Assembly (NCBI GenBank): GCA_951406725.2
Contig: OX597818.1
Coordinates: 15,314,001-15,378,000, forward strand
Direction of reading: 5' to 3'
Length of the DNA stretch: 64,000 nucleotides
From: Octopus vulgaris
Lineage: Eukaryota
Shown here piece after piece: positions 42,001 through 60,000 of the stretch (position 1 is the stretch's first letter; each line of letters opens with the position of its first letter). The position numbers are program-made.

Positions 42001-45000
42001 AGTGTCTTAACCAATTTTTCAAGCCAATCACATGGAGAAAGGTATTCACCTCCATTTTGGAAAACTGTCTCATTTTGTTCACAGGGTTTCTCATAAATAA
42101 AATAATGAATCAATGAATCAAGGGACATCATGAGCCTATATATCTGTGATACGAGCCTGTATGTCTGTTCACACTATATGAAAACAATCATATCGTGTAC
42201 AAATATTGATGATGTAATATTCAACTATGGTCATTTGTTAGCAGTTTTGATACGACATCCTCTAGTAACCTTCAACACATTAACACACATGCGTACAAAT
42301 AGGCAATGTAGATATTACATATACATAACTATGGTTTTTAAAATAAAAAATTATAGCAATAATAATTTATTATTTAACTATAATTTATAGACTACAACTG
42401 GATAAGTTACAATTAATTTTCTTAAGTGATTAAATACTTTAATGACATTTTGATTTATCATAAGTTATAGTGTCATTTAGGAATAATGTTTTTTTAAGCT
42501 TCTAGTTTAAAGTAATCATATCAAAATATCATTTAAGCTAACTAAGAGATATTTTGTTTTTGTTTTTCAACACGTTACACATACATGCACACAAATGCAT
42601 TAAACAAGTTAGCATTTACATAACTAACATTTTTTTTAAAAAATACATTGGTTGTTGAAACACACATATTTGATTGAGTCTATCAAATTCTTCCCCTGAT
42701 GAAATACCTAATTAATGATATCCAATATGAAAATTTAATTTAATTTCTTAACCCTTTTGTAACTGGCTCTGGCTCTGAGTACAAATGTCTTGTTTTCATA
42801 AGTTTTGAATTAAAATCTTCCACCAAACCTTAGTCACAATTTATGTTCCTAACACTAACTGAATGGTAGCTAAGTTATTTTACTAAATTCTTTGTTATAT
42901 TTAAAATAATTGAAAGAAATACAGAGCATCTCAAAATAAATACAGTGACGAAAGGGTTAAACTGATTCAGGTGAAATTGAGTTTGATATTGTTCAGAATT
43001 GTATTATGTTCTAATAAATGGTTGTCCATATGTCAGTTTCTCCATTTTCCTTTACTCATATATATATACATACAACAGGTATTGTTCAGTTTCTGTCTGC
43101 CAAATCTATTCACAAGGCTTTGGTCAGCCTGAGGCAATAGTAGAACACATTTGCCCAAGGTTCCACACAGTGGGACTGAACCCAGAGCCATGTGATTAGG
43201 AAGCAAGCTTCGTACCACACAGCCATGCTAAATGTTTAGTATTTTATTATCAAGCATTAAAGGACAAGAGTGGGATCCTCTGGGAGCCTTTGATATAATC
43301 TTGGCAGCATGTTTTTGTAAAGTATGAAGTTTATTTAATTTTAATTTCTTGACACTACCCCAAGCTAGGTTACTTTATATTAAATATGGATTAACAAAAG
43401 AAAAATACTACATTTTCATTGCTCTGTTGTCCAAAAACTTAAGTCCCCTACAGATTATTCCAAGTTGTGTCCATATTTTGGATTCTGTTGTTAGAATGTG
43501 CAATTTCCAATTCATATTTTCATCAGTAAGGATTCCTAGAAACTTTATATATATAGACCTTTTGAATTCTTTTGAGTTAAAGTGAAGTTTTGGGGGTTGT
43601 AAAGAAATGTGCTTGTGTGTGTGAATGACTGTATGTTTTTGTATCCTGCCTTGAGCATTGAATGATAGTTGTAAATAATTGTATTATCTGCTTGGTGACA
43701 AGAAGGGCATCCAGTCATAAAAATCCACCTCAAATAAACTCGCCCAACCCATGCATGGAAAAAAAAAGGATATTGATCCTGTGGCATTTAAACCAGCCTT
43801 ATCCAGTCAAAACATTCTCTCTGTTTTATGTACAAACTAGTCGTGTCTGACCTCTCACACCAATCCTACAATATCATTCTAGAAATTAACAGTTACCTCA
43901 TCAAAATCTCAAAGCTACAAAATAATGCATGGTTAACCCCTTTGTTACTGTATTTATTTTGAGATGCTCTGTGTTTCTTTCAATTTATTTAAATATAACA
44001 AAGAATTTAGTAAAATAACTTAGTTATCATTTAGGAACATAAATTGTGATAAGCTTCGGTGGAAGATTTTAATTCAAAACTTATGAAAACAAGACATTTG
44101 TACTCAGAGCCAGAGCCAGTTTCAGCCAGGCTGGTAACGAAAAGGTTAATTAAAAGCAATGTGAATAAATAAGCATTGCATTTGGTAGAATAATCAGAAT
44201 GCTAAAGGGTTAAATGAGGATGTGAAGGAGTAATAAATATTATTAAACTGAATCTCTAGAATCTATAATTCTATTAAATGTAATTATCAAAGGATAAAAT
44301 TTACTGTTGCAAATGCCATTTAGTCAATTAGATTAATCACTCATCTATTTATTCTTCTATTGCAGATGATGTTGCAACAAGGCATTATATTATTGCTTTT
44401 CACAGTTATTTCTTATTCGAGCGGTAAGTTTGAATTCGATATGTATTCAATTAACAGTATTCAAAGAGGTGACAATGGTTATTGAATTGAGTGGCAGAAT
44501 TAATTTATCACCTGATTTTTAACACCATCATTCAACCATTGAGTGCCTTTAGAGCAATCAAATCTACTGGAAGCATTTGAATCAGGACTTTAGCCTGGCT
44601 TGAAAGTAACAGCCCTCCTGTTTCCCACTTCCAGTTTTGCGGACCAGGGAAAGTTCATGAATGCTGTTTCTTCCTTTCTAATTGAGTCACATAATAATGA
44701 TACTAATAATTGGCATAAGAAAAATGGTAAAGAACCCATTGGTTATGAATGACCATGGAATTGCACCTAGCATGTTCCTTCCGAGGCACAAGTCCAGGCA
44801 AGGCTGTTTCTGGAAGATCAGCAGTCACCCGTGCATACCATTCTCCTCTTTCCATGCCACTGACATTTGTCCAAGAGAAAGGCAAAGGCTGATGTAACTT
44901 GGGACTAGTGACATCACAACTCATTTCTACAGCTAAGTGAACTGGAGCAATGTCAAATAAAGCGTCCTGCTCAAGAACGCAACACAGCCCAGTCCAGGAA

Positions 45001-57000: not shown

Positions 57001-60000
57001 TGAAACAAATTACCATAAAAACTCATGTACATTGCACACCTGTGTAATGTATGCAGGTGATTTTCAGGATGAAATCTGTTAAAAAAAGCTTCTACTCGTG
57101 TAACATTTTGCACCCAAAAGTTTTCAGAATTGCCGATATAGCCAGGGAAAAAGGTTTTCAATTTAGTTGTATTTAGCATAATTTCACTTACTTAAGATTA
57201 GATTTTATTAAATTTTCATTAAATACAAATGATTTCCTTTTAACAAGTATCACATTGAAAGCTATTAAATTACAAAATTTTTATGTTGTTTATAATAAAC
57301 TTTATTTTACATTTCTTGTCACAAGAGATTATGTTTGATCTTTAGCATACTGCAGCATGTCTCCTCAAATCACGATCACAAGAAAAGTTGTTGATAAGAA
57401 TTACCAACAAAAGCAAAGATGATAAATATGCACAGGTGTGCAATTAAGTTTAATTACCAATAAACATCAGCTTGGATGACACTTTACTCAACCGACAGTG
57501 GAAGGTGATTTATCAAACTGATTATGTAAACAGAATTCTTTTCTGCCTATTCTTGTCTGAACCTTTGATATGGAGTATCGAAATTTTAATCCCTTATAAC
57601 ACTTATAAAATTTCAAACAAACTTAAAACTTTGTCATTACCGTTATAGTCAGTATGAGCAGAACTTGTGAATCGTTTACTGTGAAGGAGAAATTAAATAT
57701 GTTGAATATGCATTTGAATGTGGCATTTTAATGTTAATGAAGCCAATGTTTGAAATTGGCGCACACAGTACAACAAACTTAAAACCATGCCTAGTAATAA
57801 ACAGACAAAAATAAAAACATATAATCAAGATTATCCATATCATTACTACATTTTTTTCAGTCAGGAATCTCCATATCACTAGGTATGTCAATGGTGCTCC
57901 ATTGAGATAGGTAGAAACTCTAAGCAATATAAAATATGGCCCAAATCATATTTGCCAGCATGAACATCAGACTTCAAAAAGTAGTTAATCATTTATGGGT
58001 TTTAGTAAATTTATACAGAAAAAGTAAGCACCAAACCGTCTAGCATTAGTAAAAGCCATTATTTTTCCCGTAAAAATCTATCCTGACATTAAATGAGTCA
58101 ACTTCCGGTACAAATGTTTACGTTTTGTACGTCTTTTTTCAAAAAAAAATTTCAAAAAAAATTCTGGAAATGATCTACTCCTGTAATTTATGCACCCACT
58201 AATATATTTTTATTTTTGCAGAAAAAGTGCATAAATTACATGGGTTTTTATGGTAACATGGAAGGTTTTAATTTAGATCACTTTAAAACTGGAAGTTGGT
58301 ATCATAGAACCAAGGGGATGAATTGGGTGGGTTGGTGCCAGAATGATTAAACTGAATTTAACAGGAGGAAATATCAGGCAAACAAATATTTTAGAATCTT
58401 TTAAATATTTATTACATGTTTATATATATTGTGTATTTTATCTTTTTTGCTGCAGATTTCCCAACAGTTCAAGTAAACAGTGTCAATGTGAAAATAGGTG
58501 AACAAGCTACATTGAAATGTAATGTTGAAGATTCAACTAATTTTCAAATAGCTTCATTAAAATGGACGCAAAAAATCTTTGGACATCAGATTGAAGGACA
58601 TGTCTCCAATGAGACTCAATTAATCTTCAATAATACTTCCTGGAGGGATACAGGCAACTGGACATGTACTATTATGGTAACAGCTAACCAGAAAACACAA
58701 ATAATTAAAGGATCTGGGATACTCTCTGCATCTGGTAAGACAATTAAATAATAATTCCTAGAGAGTCATAGGCATGAATGCATGGTTTACAAGTTTCCCT
58801 CACAATTATGTGATTATTGATTGATTCAACTGAGCTACTTCTTCTTCTTCTTCTTCTTCTTCTTCTTCTTCTTCTCATTCTTCTTTTCTCTTTGTGTTTT
58901 TAGTCTGGTACAAAAATTACTCCAGCCTTTCCAAAATTTCAAATTTGATGTTTATTTCATATTAAACTTTATTTAACTATGTACCATATTGAAGCACATA
59001 TTTTGCTGTGTTGATTTATGCTAATAGCCTTGCTTTCACTGTTTATTCAGCATGTGTGCATATTGCCTGACTTATAAGAATTAACTGACACTGTTATGTC
59101 AATTTCACGCAAAAAGAAAATATGTAAATATACATCTGTGAATGTAAAAAAAGTGTATGTGCACATATGCAAATAAATGTGCATGTGTGGGTGCATACAT
59201 GCATATGCACATTTGGTGCTATTTGTCAGTGTTATATTTGTGTCTGTGTGAATGCATGTGTGTAGACATATGTGTATCTCATACTGCCATAAGAATGCTT
59301 ACTTTGGCAATTCAGTCCATTTTCTTACACTATGGATGCACACACATGCATGCATACGCACACATACACACACATACATACATACACACACGTCGCTTCT
59401 CTTTCTATCTTTCTCTCTCTCGCTCTCTGTCTCTCTCTGTATGTGTGTAAATATATATATGTATATATACATAGCTGTATTCATATACATCCTTTGGATG
59501 AGAATGCACAAATTAAAACATGAAGATTTTGGAAACGTATGTAGCAAAAATTACTCTAGAAGATAGGAATGATAAGCAGTAGTCAGAATAAGGAGCAAAA
59601 GAGCTTTTTATGAGCACATTCAAAAATGTTTCACATAAACGAACAACAAACTCAAAGGCTATATATATATATATATATATAGGTGTAGGAGTGGCTGTGT
59701 GGTAAGTAGCTTGCTTACCAACCCCATGGTTCCAGGTTCAGTCCCACTGCGTGGAACTTTGGGCAAGTGTCTTCTACTCTAGCCTTTGGCCAACCAAAGC
59801 CTTGTGAGTGGATTTGGTAGATGGAAACTGAAAGAAGCCCATTGTATATATGTATATATATATATGTATGTGTGTGTGTACATGTTTTTATGTCTGTGTT
59901 TGTCCCCCCAATATCGCTTGACAACCGATGCTGGTGTGTAACTTAGCGGTTCGGCAAAAGAGACCGATAGAATATATATATATATATATATATATATATA

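What the first reader, a model, noticed from the sequence alone, without database searches (positions are those of the whole stretch)
44366..58734. Ig-superfamily gene with three tandem, interchangeable V-domain exons: candidate Dscam-like alternative-exon cassette in a probable cephalopod receptor
Seen: signal-peptide exon, then three copies of a phase 1-1 V-type Ig exon with intact splice sites, then a single I/C2 Ig exon. Either open V exon (1 or 3), or both, can be spliced in frame. Including copy 2 as written causes a premature stop, so a functional mRNA must skip it. Established: arrays of duplicated symmetric Ig exons underlie mutually exclusive splicing in arthropod Dscam1, and molluscan V-Ig lectins such as FREPs are diversified immune receptors. 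Inference: this may be a young leader-[V1|V2|V3]-C diversification unit. I do not recognise the protein, and its C-terminus lies outside the window.
Basis: partly seen in the sequence, partly recalled or inferred. Interest (0 to 1): 0.8.

Follow-up and report, generated by a model that had tools for sequence, protein, structure and literature searches.

The report
Octopus Ig receptor gene, triplicated exon
An octopus cell-surface receptor gene carries three near-identical tandem copies of the exon for its outermost Ig-like domain; public gene models join the copies in series, so this looks like domain expansion, not Dscam-style exon choice.

Summary
A 58-nt leader exon, three phase 1-1 copies of a 321-nt exon (copy 2 is 320 nt, from a T6-to-T5 run) and one Ig exon all lie where stated, with AG/GT borders. 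The copies sit in a 3-unit tandem array, 48892-53174.

The window is the Octopus vulgaris locus of a protein named "kin of IRRE 1". All 8 of that protein's segments found in the window match exactly. The O. sinensis orthologue (LOC115211591 isoform X3) reads V-V-Ig-Ig-TM-tail. The Argonauta hians relative has one V.

Both Octopus models hold two V copies in series. Three of the four published ways to enforce mutual exclusion are not met. The fourth, competing RNA pairing, is present only as dispersed SINE-like repeats.

Pfam does not recognise the repeated exon. A modest AlphaFold model, Foldseek and ESM features point to an Ig-like, probably V-like, domain.

One oddity: V1 differs from V2/V3 five times more in the exon than in the rest of the unit.

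Verdict: lineage-specific Ig-exon triplication. The Dscam-like reading is unsupported but not excluded.

The parts
7386..7422 (+). Upstream exon of the public O. vulgaris model (P0002 residues 1-12, MAKSEL...); probably 5' UTR or an over-extended CDS start
   Evidence: Exact peptide match; followed by gtaaat
13702..13736 (+). Second upstream exon of the public model (P0002 residues 13-24)
   Evidence: Exact peptide match; ag before it and gtaagt after it
44366..44423 (+). Leader exon: ATG plus a hydrophobic signal-peptide-like stretch MMLQQGIILLLFTVISYSS; ends in phase 1
   Evidence: 100% match to P0002 residues 25-43. Signal-peptide call is by eye; no predictor was run
48892..53174 (+). Tandem array of three units (48892-50282, 50283-51666, 51667-53174). 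Each unit holds one V-like exon plus about 1.07 kb of intron made largely of repeats. Unit 3 carries insertions of 4, 13 and 95 nt
   Evidence: Self-blastn and MAFFT alignment
48941..49261 (+). V1 exon, 321 nt, phase 1-1, open; divergent Ig-like domain with Cys22, Trp31, Cys45, Cys65, Cys90
50332..50651 (+). V2 exon, 320 nt; identical to V3 except for one missing T in the run at 50369-50373, which shifts the frame and gives a stop after 42 codons
51716..52036 (+). V3 exon, 321 nt, phase 1-1, open; 10 amino-acid differences from V1
58456..58734 (+). Ig exon (Pfam Ig_3 / I-set), phase 1-1; the last exon of the gene inside the window
49563..49890 (+). Two forward copies of a dispersed ~150-nt SINE-like repeat in the intron of unit 1. 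The same pair lies at 50953-51280 (unit 2) and 52355-52777 (unit 3). A further forward copy lies at 47644-47791, upstream of the array
56844..56955 (-). Single inverted copy of the same repeat in the intron between V3 and the Ig exon. In the pre-mRNA it could pair with any of the 7 forward copies. Candidate competing structure only; function not shown
   Evidence: duplex energy -130 to -137 kcal/mol against -40 to -45 for shuffled controls
48524..48555 (-). Short inverted fragment of the same repeat, about 340 nt upstream of the array

Best explanation
This is the 5' part of an octopod-restricted Ig-superfamily type I membrane receptor gene. In O. vulgaris it is labelled 'kin of IRRE 1'; in O. 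sinensis it is LOC115211591.

The ancestral layout, kept in Argonauta, is signal peptide, one fast-evolving N-terminal V-like Ig domain, two Ig domains, a TM helix, and a tail with conserved tyrosine motifs.

In the Octopus vulgaris/sinensis lineage, the phase 1-1 exon for the N-terminal domain was tandemly duplicated together with about 1.07 kb of its downstream intron. That gave a V1-type and a V3-type copy. This assembly has a third unit: V2, a copy of the V3 type.

Because the exon is symmetric, the copies are spliced one after another and lengthen the ectodomain (V-V-Ig-Ig, possibly V-V-V-Ig-Ig). This is domain-number expansion, not a one-of-n choice.

The single-base frameshift in V2 is most likely either a very recent or heterozygous lesion, or a homopolymer error of the assembly. 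It is unlikely to be an old pseudo-exon.

Shown: the anatomy, the orthology and the serial models. Inferred: that serial splicing is the main form in vivo, and the nature of the V2 frameshift.
For: 1. Identity of the gene. P0002 maps at 100% to 8 window segments. P0001 differs from V1 by 1 residue and from V3 by 2.

2. Serial use. P0001 reads V1-type, K, V3-type, N, Ig. P0002 reads leader, V1 parts, K, V2 part, V2/V3 part, N, Ig.

3. The single-V form. P0004, named Argonauta hians, has one V-like domain and is otherwise colinear (46% identity over 428 columns).

4. Both paralogue types are kept. P0001's first V holds the V1 residue at 8 of the 9 V1/V3 difference sites it covers. Its second V holds the V3 residue at 8 of 10. 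The V1/V3 split therefore predates the species split. dN/dS between V1 and V3 is 0.41.

5. No feature enforces exclusion: introns of 1070 and 1064 nt, all sites GT-AG, exon length 3x107.

6. V2 against V3: 0 substitutions in 320 exon positions against 17 in 1064 elsewhere in the unit (Fisher p=0.018). This is unexpected for a long-dead exon. The lesion is T6 to T5.

7. The published O. vulgaris chromosome assembly was built from ONT R9.4.1 reads polished with Illumina and ONT reads (PMC10700109, passages read).

8. Architecture. TM helix at residues 411-442; Ig domains modelled at pLDDT 70-86. Pfam finds Ig_3/I-set at 214-283 and V-set at 314-401.
Against: Both public proteins are computed gene models. 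I saw no reads.

P0002 is an odd model. It removes 159 nt from inside the intact V1 exon through an internal GT-AG pair (49027-49185), and it reads part of V2 in the shifted frame. That looks like software preserving an ORF.

P0001 is 'isoform X3', so other isoforms exist. I could not list them (one search did not complete). P0001 also starts at a Met inside V1 and lacks the leader.

A single inverted repeat copy downstream of the array can pair with repeat copies in every unit. That is the layout which PMC6071210 (abstract and passages) says can turn a tandem exon duplication into alternative exons.

The copy number of the array in O. sinensis is unknown.
Confidence: 0.6

Rival explanations
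1. Facultative cassette use. The V exons are alternatively included or skipped, giving receptors with one, two or three N-terminal domains or with different V types. Inclusion need not be strictly exclusive. It might be steered by competing pairing between the one inverted SINE-like copy at 56844-56955 and the forward copies in each unit.
For: All junction combinations keep the frame. V1 and V3 differ at 10 of 106 residues and both types are conserved in O. sinensis. The inverted copy gives duplexes of about 95 pairs with each of 7 forward copies, at -130 to -137 kcal/mol against -40 to -45 for shuffled controls. PMC6071210 proposes that duplicating one arm of an intronic stem creates competing selectors. 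NCBI lists at least three isoforms in O. sinensis, judging from the name 'isoform X3'.
Against: There is no transcript evidence for skipping. The two models available include two copies in series. The complementary elements belong to a dispersed repeat with further copies at 12563, 21510, 34929 and 47644. Such pairs are expected in any octopus intron, and I could not test conservation. All three V exons have nearly identical strong splice sites.
Confidence: 0.2
2. Strict Dscam-like mutually exclusive splicing: exactly one of V1/V2/V3 per mRNA.
For: A tandem array of homologous, same-length, same-phase exons. Possible docking/selector-like complementarity.
Against: P0001 and P0002 both contain two copies in series. 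The steric, U2/U12 and nonsense-mediated-decay mechanisms are not met (list of mechanisms from PMC6071210). With the inverted copy downstream of the array, looping would give nested inclusion (V1; V1+V2; V1+V2+V3), not one of three. That last point is my inference.
Confidence: 0.05
3. The third unit is partly an assembly artefact. U2 and U3 would be two haplotypes of one unit laid in tandem, or the T5 run in V2 would be a consensus error. The true locus would then have two intact V exons, or three.
For: U2 and U3 differ at 17 of 1064 non-exon positions (1.6%) and at 0 of 320 exon positions. That is close to the 1.22% heterozygosity reported for the sequenced O. vulgaris animal (PMC10700109, passage read). 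That assembly was based on ONT R9.4.1 reads. The frameshift is a homopolymer length change. The O. sinensis model has two V domains, not three.
Against: U3 also differs from U2 by insertions of 4, 13 and 95 nt. ONT reads of many kb should span a 4.3-kb array. The assembly was polished and passed through purge_dups. I cannot see reads or depth, and I only infer that the window comes from that assembly.
Confidence: 0.15

Closest known systems
Arthropod Dscam1 variable exon clusters (exons 4, 6, 9)
   Same: Tandem arrays of duplicated exons that encode all or half of an Ig domain in a cell-surface IgSF receptor. Here, intronic sequences repeated with each exon are complementary to a single site outside the array.
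   Different: Three copies here, against tens in Dscam1. The public models show copies in series. The exon length is a multiple of three and the introns are long, so nothing known enforces exclusion. The complementary elements are copies of a dispersed repeat and are not shown to be conserved. No sequence relation to Dscam was found. The copy numbers for Dscam1 are recalled.
Tandem exon duplication that creates competing RNA structures (Ivanov and Pervouchine 2018, PMC6071210; abstract and passages read)
   Same: The duplication took the exon together with adjacent intron. The intron holds one arm of a possible long-range stem; the other arm (56844-56955) stayed single-copy.
   Different: Here the stem arms are transposon copies. 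There is no evidence that the structure forms or affects splicing.
Domain-number expansion of IgSF receptors by duplication of phase 1-1 Ig exons (general principle, recalled)
   Same: One domain per symmetric exon. The duplicated exon is spliced in series and lengthens the ectodomain. The sister-species model is V-V-Ig-Ig, and the Argonauta relative is V-Ig-Ig.
   Different: The duplicated domain is so divergent that Pfam misses it, and it is known only from octopods. The intron copies are much more alike than the exon copies.
Uncharacterized protein LOC115211591 isoform X3 (Octopus sinensis, P0001), the O. vulgaris protein named 'kin of IRRE 1' (P0002), and the Argonauta hians relative (P0004)
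   Same: P0002 is the product annotated for this very locus, and P0001 is its orthologue (99% identical over V1). P0004 shares every domain and the tail motifs.
   Different: P0004 has a single V-like domain. P0001 lacks the leader. P0002 is a patched model.
Molluscan FREPs and vertebrate/insect Kirrel (kin of IRRE)
   Same: IgSF proteins; FREPs are molluscan.
   Different: There is no fibrinogen domain. The best solved-structure matches are OBCAM, titin and neurotrimin at E of 1e-5 to 1e-4, and no Kirrel chain is among the 4 hits. The label 'kin of IRRE' looks like automatic name transfer.

Membership tests
Dscam1-type mutually exclusive exon cluster | Tandem array of homologous exons of the same length and phase | tested here: met
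   Three copies of 321/320/321 nt, phase 1-1, 94.7-100% identical at aligned positions
Dscam1-type mutually exclusive exon cluster | One and only one exon of the array in each mature mRNA | tested here: not met
   No reads were available. The 2 Octopus protein models that carry the domain (2 of 2) each hold two copies in series. They are predicted models, so this is weak
Dscam1-type mutually exclusive exon cluster | Exclusion by an intron too short to splice (steric hindrance) | tested here: not met
   Inter-V introns are 1070 and 1064 nt (coordinates)
Dscam1-type mutually exclusive exon cluster | Exclusion by U2/U12 splice-site incompatibility | tested here: not met
   All five exons have an AG acceptor behind a pyrimidine tract and a GTAAG donor
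Dscam1-type mutually exclusive exon cluster | Exclusion by frameshift and nonsense-mediated decay when two exons are joined | tested here: not met
   321 = 3 x 107, so V1+V3 stays in frame. Only V2 as written introduces a stop
Dscam1-type mutually exclusive exon cluster | Conserved docking site paired competitively with one selector per exon | tested here: inconclusive
   Complementarity exists: 80 nt at 86% between 56870-56949 and each unit, and 24 nt at 96% between 48532-48555 and each unit, with strong duplex energies. All of it lies in a dispersed SINE-like repeat. No other species' DNA was at hand to test conservation
Immunoglobulin superfamily, V-set domain (the repeated exon) | Match to a Pfam Ig-clan profile | tested here: not met
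   0 Ig families for V1 and V3 at E<=1. No Pfam stretch covers residues 1-210 of P0001
Immunoglobulin superfamily, V-set domain (the repeated exon) | Beta-sandwich with the B-F cysteine pair and the C-strand tryptophan | tested here: met
   C22, W31 and C90 are invariant in 4 of 4 sequences. AF2 model of 8 strands, pLDDT 64, pTM 0.59. Foldseek gives 136 PDB matches at E<=0.001; the rows displayed are Ig-domain-containing entries, TMq 0.41-0.64. Confidence is moderate
Immunoglobulin superfamily, V-set domain (the repeated exon) | Extra C'/C'' strands that set V-set apart from I-set and C2 | tested here: inconclusive
   The Cys-Cys distance of 68 residues is V-like (typical V-set range recalled). 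Residues 36-54 are modelled below pLDDT 50. Foldseek hits mix V-set and I-set. The named ESM clusters are mostly V-set, at 0.91-0.93
Fibrinogen-related proteins (FREPs) of molluscs | C-terminal fibrinogen domain after the IgSF domain(s) (definition recalled) | tested here: not met
   Pfam finds only Ig families in P0001, P0002 and P0004. P0001 has a TM helix at 411-442 and a tail
Kirrel / kin of IRRE | Five Ig domains and sequence kinship to Kirrel/Neph (definition recalled) | tested here: not met
   There are 3 to 5 domains, depending on V copies. phmmer against the PDB gave 4 hits at E<=0.01 (OBCAM, titin, neurotrimin twice) and no Kirrel chain

The most novel reading that the evidence does not exclude
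A newly born alternative-exon array in a mollusc. The triplicated V-like exons would be used facultatively, giving receptors with different numbers or types of N-terminal recognition domain. The choice would be steered by competition of the six forward SINE-like copies inside the array (plus one upstream) for a single inverted copy at 56844-56955. That would be a natural example of a transposon supplying docking and selector elements at the moment of a tandem exon duplication. The exon-limited divergence of V1 from V2/V3 (5.3% in the exon against 1.0-1.1% in the rest of the unit) would then reflect selection keeping the variants distinct while the introns are homogenised.
Probability: 0.1. Interest if true: 0.7.

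Novelty: new member of a known kind. Interest (0 to 1): 0.3.

Why it matters
If the plain reading holds, this is a tidy, recent example of how symmetric Ig exons let a receptor grow by whole domains. The receptor family is seen only in octopods, and its outermost domain evolves fastest: 34-36% identity between Octopus and Argonauta, against 52-58% for the inner Ig domains. It also flags a patched public gene model and a probable homopolymer problem at V2.

Two points deserve a cheap follow-up with existing Iso-Seq data. The first is whether any V exon is skipped. The second is why the exon of unit 1 is five times more diverged than its intron. That pattern points to exon-limited gene conversion, or to selection against homogenising the two domain types.

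Tried and rejected
1. Pfam on the repeated exon gave no Ig hit.

2. hhalign of a 5-sequence V alignment against the gene's own Ig domains gave probabilities of 0.9% and 0.1%. The two bona fide Ig domains reach only 3.5% against each other, so the test is uninformative with such shallow alignments.

3. AF2 on whole P0001 left the V-V region (1-211) below pLDDT 50, so it says nothing about how two V domains pack.

4. The search of 1.84 billion representatives with V1 gave 3 hits at E<=0.001. P0003 is a low-complexity repeat protein and I take it as spurious.

5. The search for short proteins (58-186 aa) that might carry informative splice junctions gave 0 hits from 2 candidates.

6. The listing of cluster members, meant to show the other O. 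sinensis isoforms, did not complete. The isoform set stayed unseen.

7. tblastn of V and Ig peptides against the window found no further or relic copies; nothing outside the three V exons and the Ig exon scored better than E=0.26. The later exons of P0001 (second Ig, TM, tail) are not in the window.

8. Positive selection as the cause of the V1/V3 divergence is rejected. dN/dS is 0.41, and the synonymous divergence itself is high at 0.105.

9. FREP and Kirrel membership are rejected.

10. The Rfam scan found no structured RNA in the gene part of the window.

11. Literature: 0 papers for LOC115211591. For octopus + immunoglobulin superfamily + mutually exclusive, 2 papers came up, both unrelated judging by title and abstract start.

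Exons were searched one by one.

13. No complex prediction was run.

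
Full report
**Observation**

- leader 44366-44423, 58 nt, ttgcag|ATGATG ... |gtaagt
- V1 48941-49261, 321 nt
- V2 50332-50651, 320 nt
- V3 51716-52036, 321 nt
- an Ig exon 58456-58734, 279 nt

Each lies behind a pyrimidine tract and AG, and in front of GTAAG.

V1 and V3 are open in phase 1. V2 in that phase stops after 42 codons. 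The V2 lesion is one T fewer in a homopolymer: T6 at 48978-48983, T5 at 50369-50373.

The exons are part of three head-to-tail units, 48892-50282, 50283-51666 and 51667-53174. Unit 3 has insertions of 4, 13 and 95 nt. tblastn of the V and Ig peptides against the whole window found no further copy; nothing outside these four exons scored better than E=0.26.

**What the gene is**

I searched exon by exon and did not join exons for any search or fold.

V1, searched against longer proteins, hit 2 proteins at E<=0.01 among 19 candidates:
- P0001, 'uncharacterized protein LOC115211591 isoform X3 [Octopus sinensis]', 574 aa
- P0002, 'kin of IRRE 1 [Octopus vulgaris]', 397 aa

P0002 maps with 100% identity to eight window segments. 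Two are upstream exons at 7386-7422 and 13702-13736, both with proper splice sites. The window is therefore this O. vulgaris locus. The gene starts at least 37 kb upstream of the leader exon.

P0001 reads V1-type, V3-type, Ig, second Ig, TM helix, tail. Its later exons are not in the window.

A search of 1.84 billion representatives with V1 gave 3 hits at E<=0.001:
- P0002
- a low-complexity protein that I take as spurious (P0003)
- P0004, 456 aa

One search names P0004 as an Argonauta hians protein. It has signal peptide, one V-like domain, the same two Ig domains, a TM segment and a tail.

With P0001 as query, only 4 of 6617 candidates passed E<=0.001. No protein of 58-186 aa matched V1: 0 of 2 candidates. 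The family is small and known only from octopods in these collections.

The tails share the stretches D-E/D-P-I/V-Y-A/E-E-I-G-Y and T-Q-N-E-Y-L. From memory, these resemble SH2-docking tyrosine motifs. I did not test this.

**Is the repeated exon a V-type Ig domain?**

- Pfam says nothing. The V-set match in P0001 lies on the membrane-proximal domain, residues 314-401, outside the window.
- Four Cys and a Trp (C22, W31, C45, C65, C90) are invariant in 4 of 4 sequences.
- An AF2 model from a 4-row alignment has 8 strands, pLDDT 64 and pTM 0.59. Residues 36-54 are poor.
- Foldseek gives 136 PDB matches at E<=0.001. The rows displayed are Ig-domain-containing entries, both V-set and I-set, with TMq 0.41-0.64.
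- The nearest ESM clusters are unnamed molluscan ones (0.95-0.96). After them come clusters that mostly carry V-set (0.91-0.93).

I conclude the domain is Ig-like, and V-like by length and features, at moderate confidence.

**Serial or alternative?**

Frame arithmetic allows any combination of V1 and V3. The evidence at hand favours serial use. Both Octopus models contain two copies joined by the K codon expected for a V-to-V junction.

PMC6071210 lists four mechanisms of mutual exclusion (abstract and passages read). Three are not met:
- Short intron: the inter-V introns are 1070 and 1064 nt.
- U2/U12 incompatibility: all sites are GT-AG.
- Frameshift with nonsense-mediated decay: the exon is 3 x 107 nt.

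The fourth, competing RNA pairing, is formally possible:
- An inverted element at 56844-56955 is complementary to elements in every unit (80 nt at 86%).
- A 24-nt stretch at 48532-48555 is complementary to a site in each unit at 96%.
- Duplex energies are -130 to -137 kcal/mol, against -40 to -45 for shuffled controls.

All these elements are copies of a dispersed ~150-nt SINE-like repeat. It also occurs at 12563, 21510, 34929 and 47644. Such pairs are expected by chance of insertion, and I could not test conservation.

Caveats:
- The models are computed.
- P0002 is visibly patched. It uses an internal GT-AG pair at 49027-49185 inside intact V1, and it reads V2 in the shifted frame.
- P0001 lacks the leader.
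- The other O. sinensis isoforms could not be listed.

**History of the array**

V1 and V3 differ at 17 nucleotides and 10 of 106 residues. dN/dS is 0.41 and dS is 0.105.

The V1 and V3 types are both present in O. sinensis. P0001's first V holds the V1 residue at 8 of the 9 difference sites it covers. Its second V holds the V3 residue at 8 of 10. The first duplication therefore predates the split of the two species, and both copies have been kept open.

The divergence is oddly distributed:

| Pair | Exon | Rest of unit | Fisher p |
|---|---|---|---|
| U1 vs U2 | 17/320 | 12/1064 | 3e-5 |
| U1 vs U3 | 17/321 | 11/1068 | 2e-5 |
| U2 vs U3 | 0/320 | 17/1064 | 0.018 |

All V1-specific changes lie between 48927 and 49223. 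Synonymous sites are affected too, so this is not simply adaptive change. I see two possible causes. Either the introns were homogenised while selection kept the two exon types apart, or an exon-limited conversion from a diverged donor took place. I could not decide between them.

V2 is identical to V3 apart from the T run. This argues that V2 is not an old dead exon. The frameshift is either recent, allelic or an assembly error. The published O. vulgaris assembly used ONT R9.4.1 reads with Illumina polishing. The sequenced animal's heterozygosity was 1.22% (PMC10700109, passages read), which is close to the U2-U3 difference.

**Verdict**

This is a lineage-specific triplication of a symmetric exon that encodes the fast-evolving outer Ig-like domain of an octopod membrane receptor. 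It is most likely read in series. The Dscam-like reading is not supported, but only transcript reads can exclude facultative skipping. The gene and its two-V product are already in public annotation as uncharacterised.

I found no paper on it: 0 papers for the locus name, and 2 unrelated papers for octopus + immunoglobulin superfamily + mutually exclusive.

Left unchecked: reads and depth, O. sinensis DNA, cluster members, paper supplements, and the closed contig collections, which are not relevant to an animal gene.

Noticed in passing
window 4230-4338 (-): Full-length 5S rRNA match (62.3 bits against a gathering score of 38, model positions 1-120). It sits between long retroelement-like ORFs on the + strand (2412-3588 and 4353-4781), which have no Pfam hit. 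It could be a 5S gene, a pseudogene or a 5S-derived repeat.
   Followed up: partly
window 18704-19177 (-): ORF with a reverse-transcriptase RNase H-like domain (RT_RNaseH_2, E=1e-19). It is a fragment of an LTR-type retrotransposon lying in the long first intron region of the gene.
   Followed up: partly
window 14001-18000: Strong negative GC skew (-0.57 and -0.33) from long CA/TC-rich microsatellite tracts. Similar simple repeats fill much of the window.
   Followed up: no
window 49027-49185 and 50417 onward: The public O. vulgaris protein P0002 omits 159 nt from inside the intact V1 exon through an internal GT...AG pair. It also leaves V2 at the same internal donor after reading it in the shifted frame. 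This is either ORF-preserving software or real cryptic splicing.
   Followed up: partly
window 48927-49223 against the rest of unit 1: All V1-specific substitutions are confined to a tract of about 300 nt that nearly coincides with the exon, and the next 245 aligned columns are identical in the three units. This is the mark of an exon-limited conversion, or of selection against homogenisation.
   Followed up: partly
window 47186-47439 and 56222-56432: Long imperfect (AT)n tracts in the introns on either side of the array. They are self-complementary and complementary to each other.
   Followed up: no
window 48586-48671: A perfect (GA)43 tract lies about 220 nt upstream of the start of the tandem array. 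It could have played a part in the duplication breakpoint.
   Followed up: no
P0001 and P0004 tails (outside the window): Conserved tyrosine stretches in the cytoplasmic tail, D-E/D-P-I/V-Y-A/E-E-I-G-Y and T-Q-N-E-Y-L, shared by Octopus and Argonauta. They suggest phosphotyrosine signalling; that reading is from memory and was not tested.
   Followed up: no
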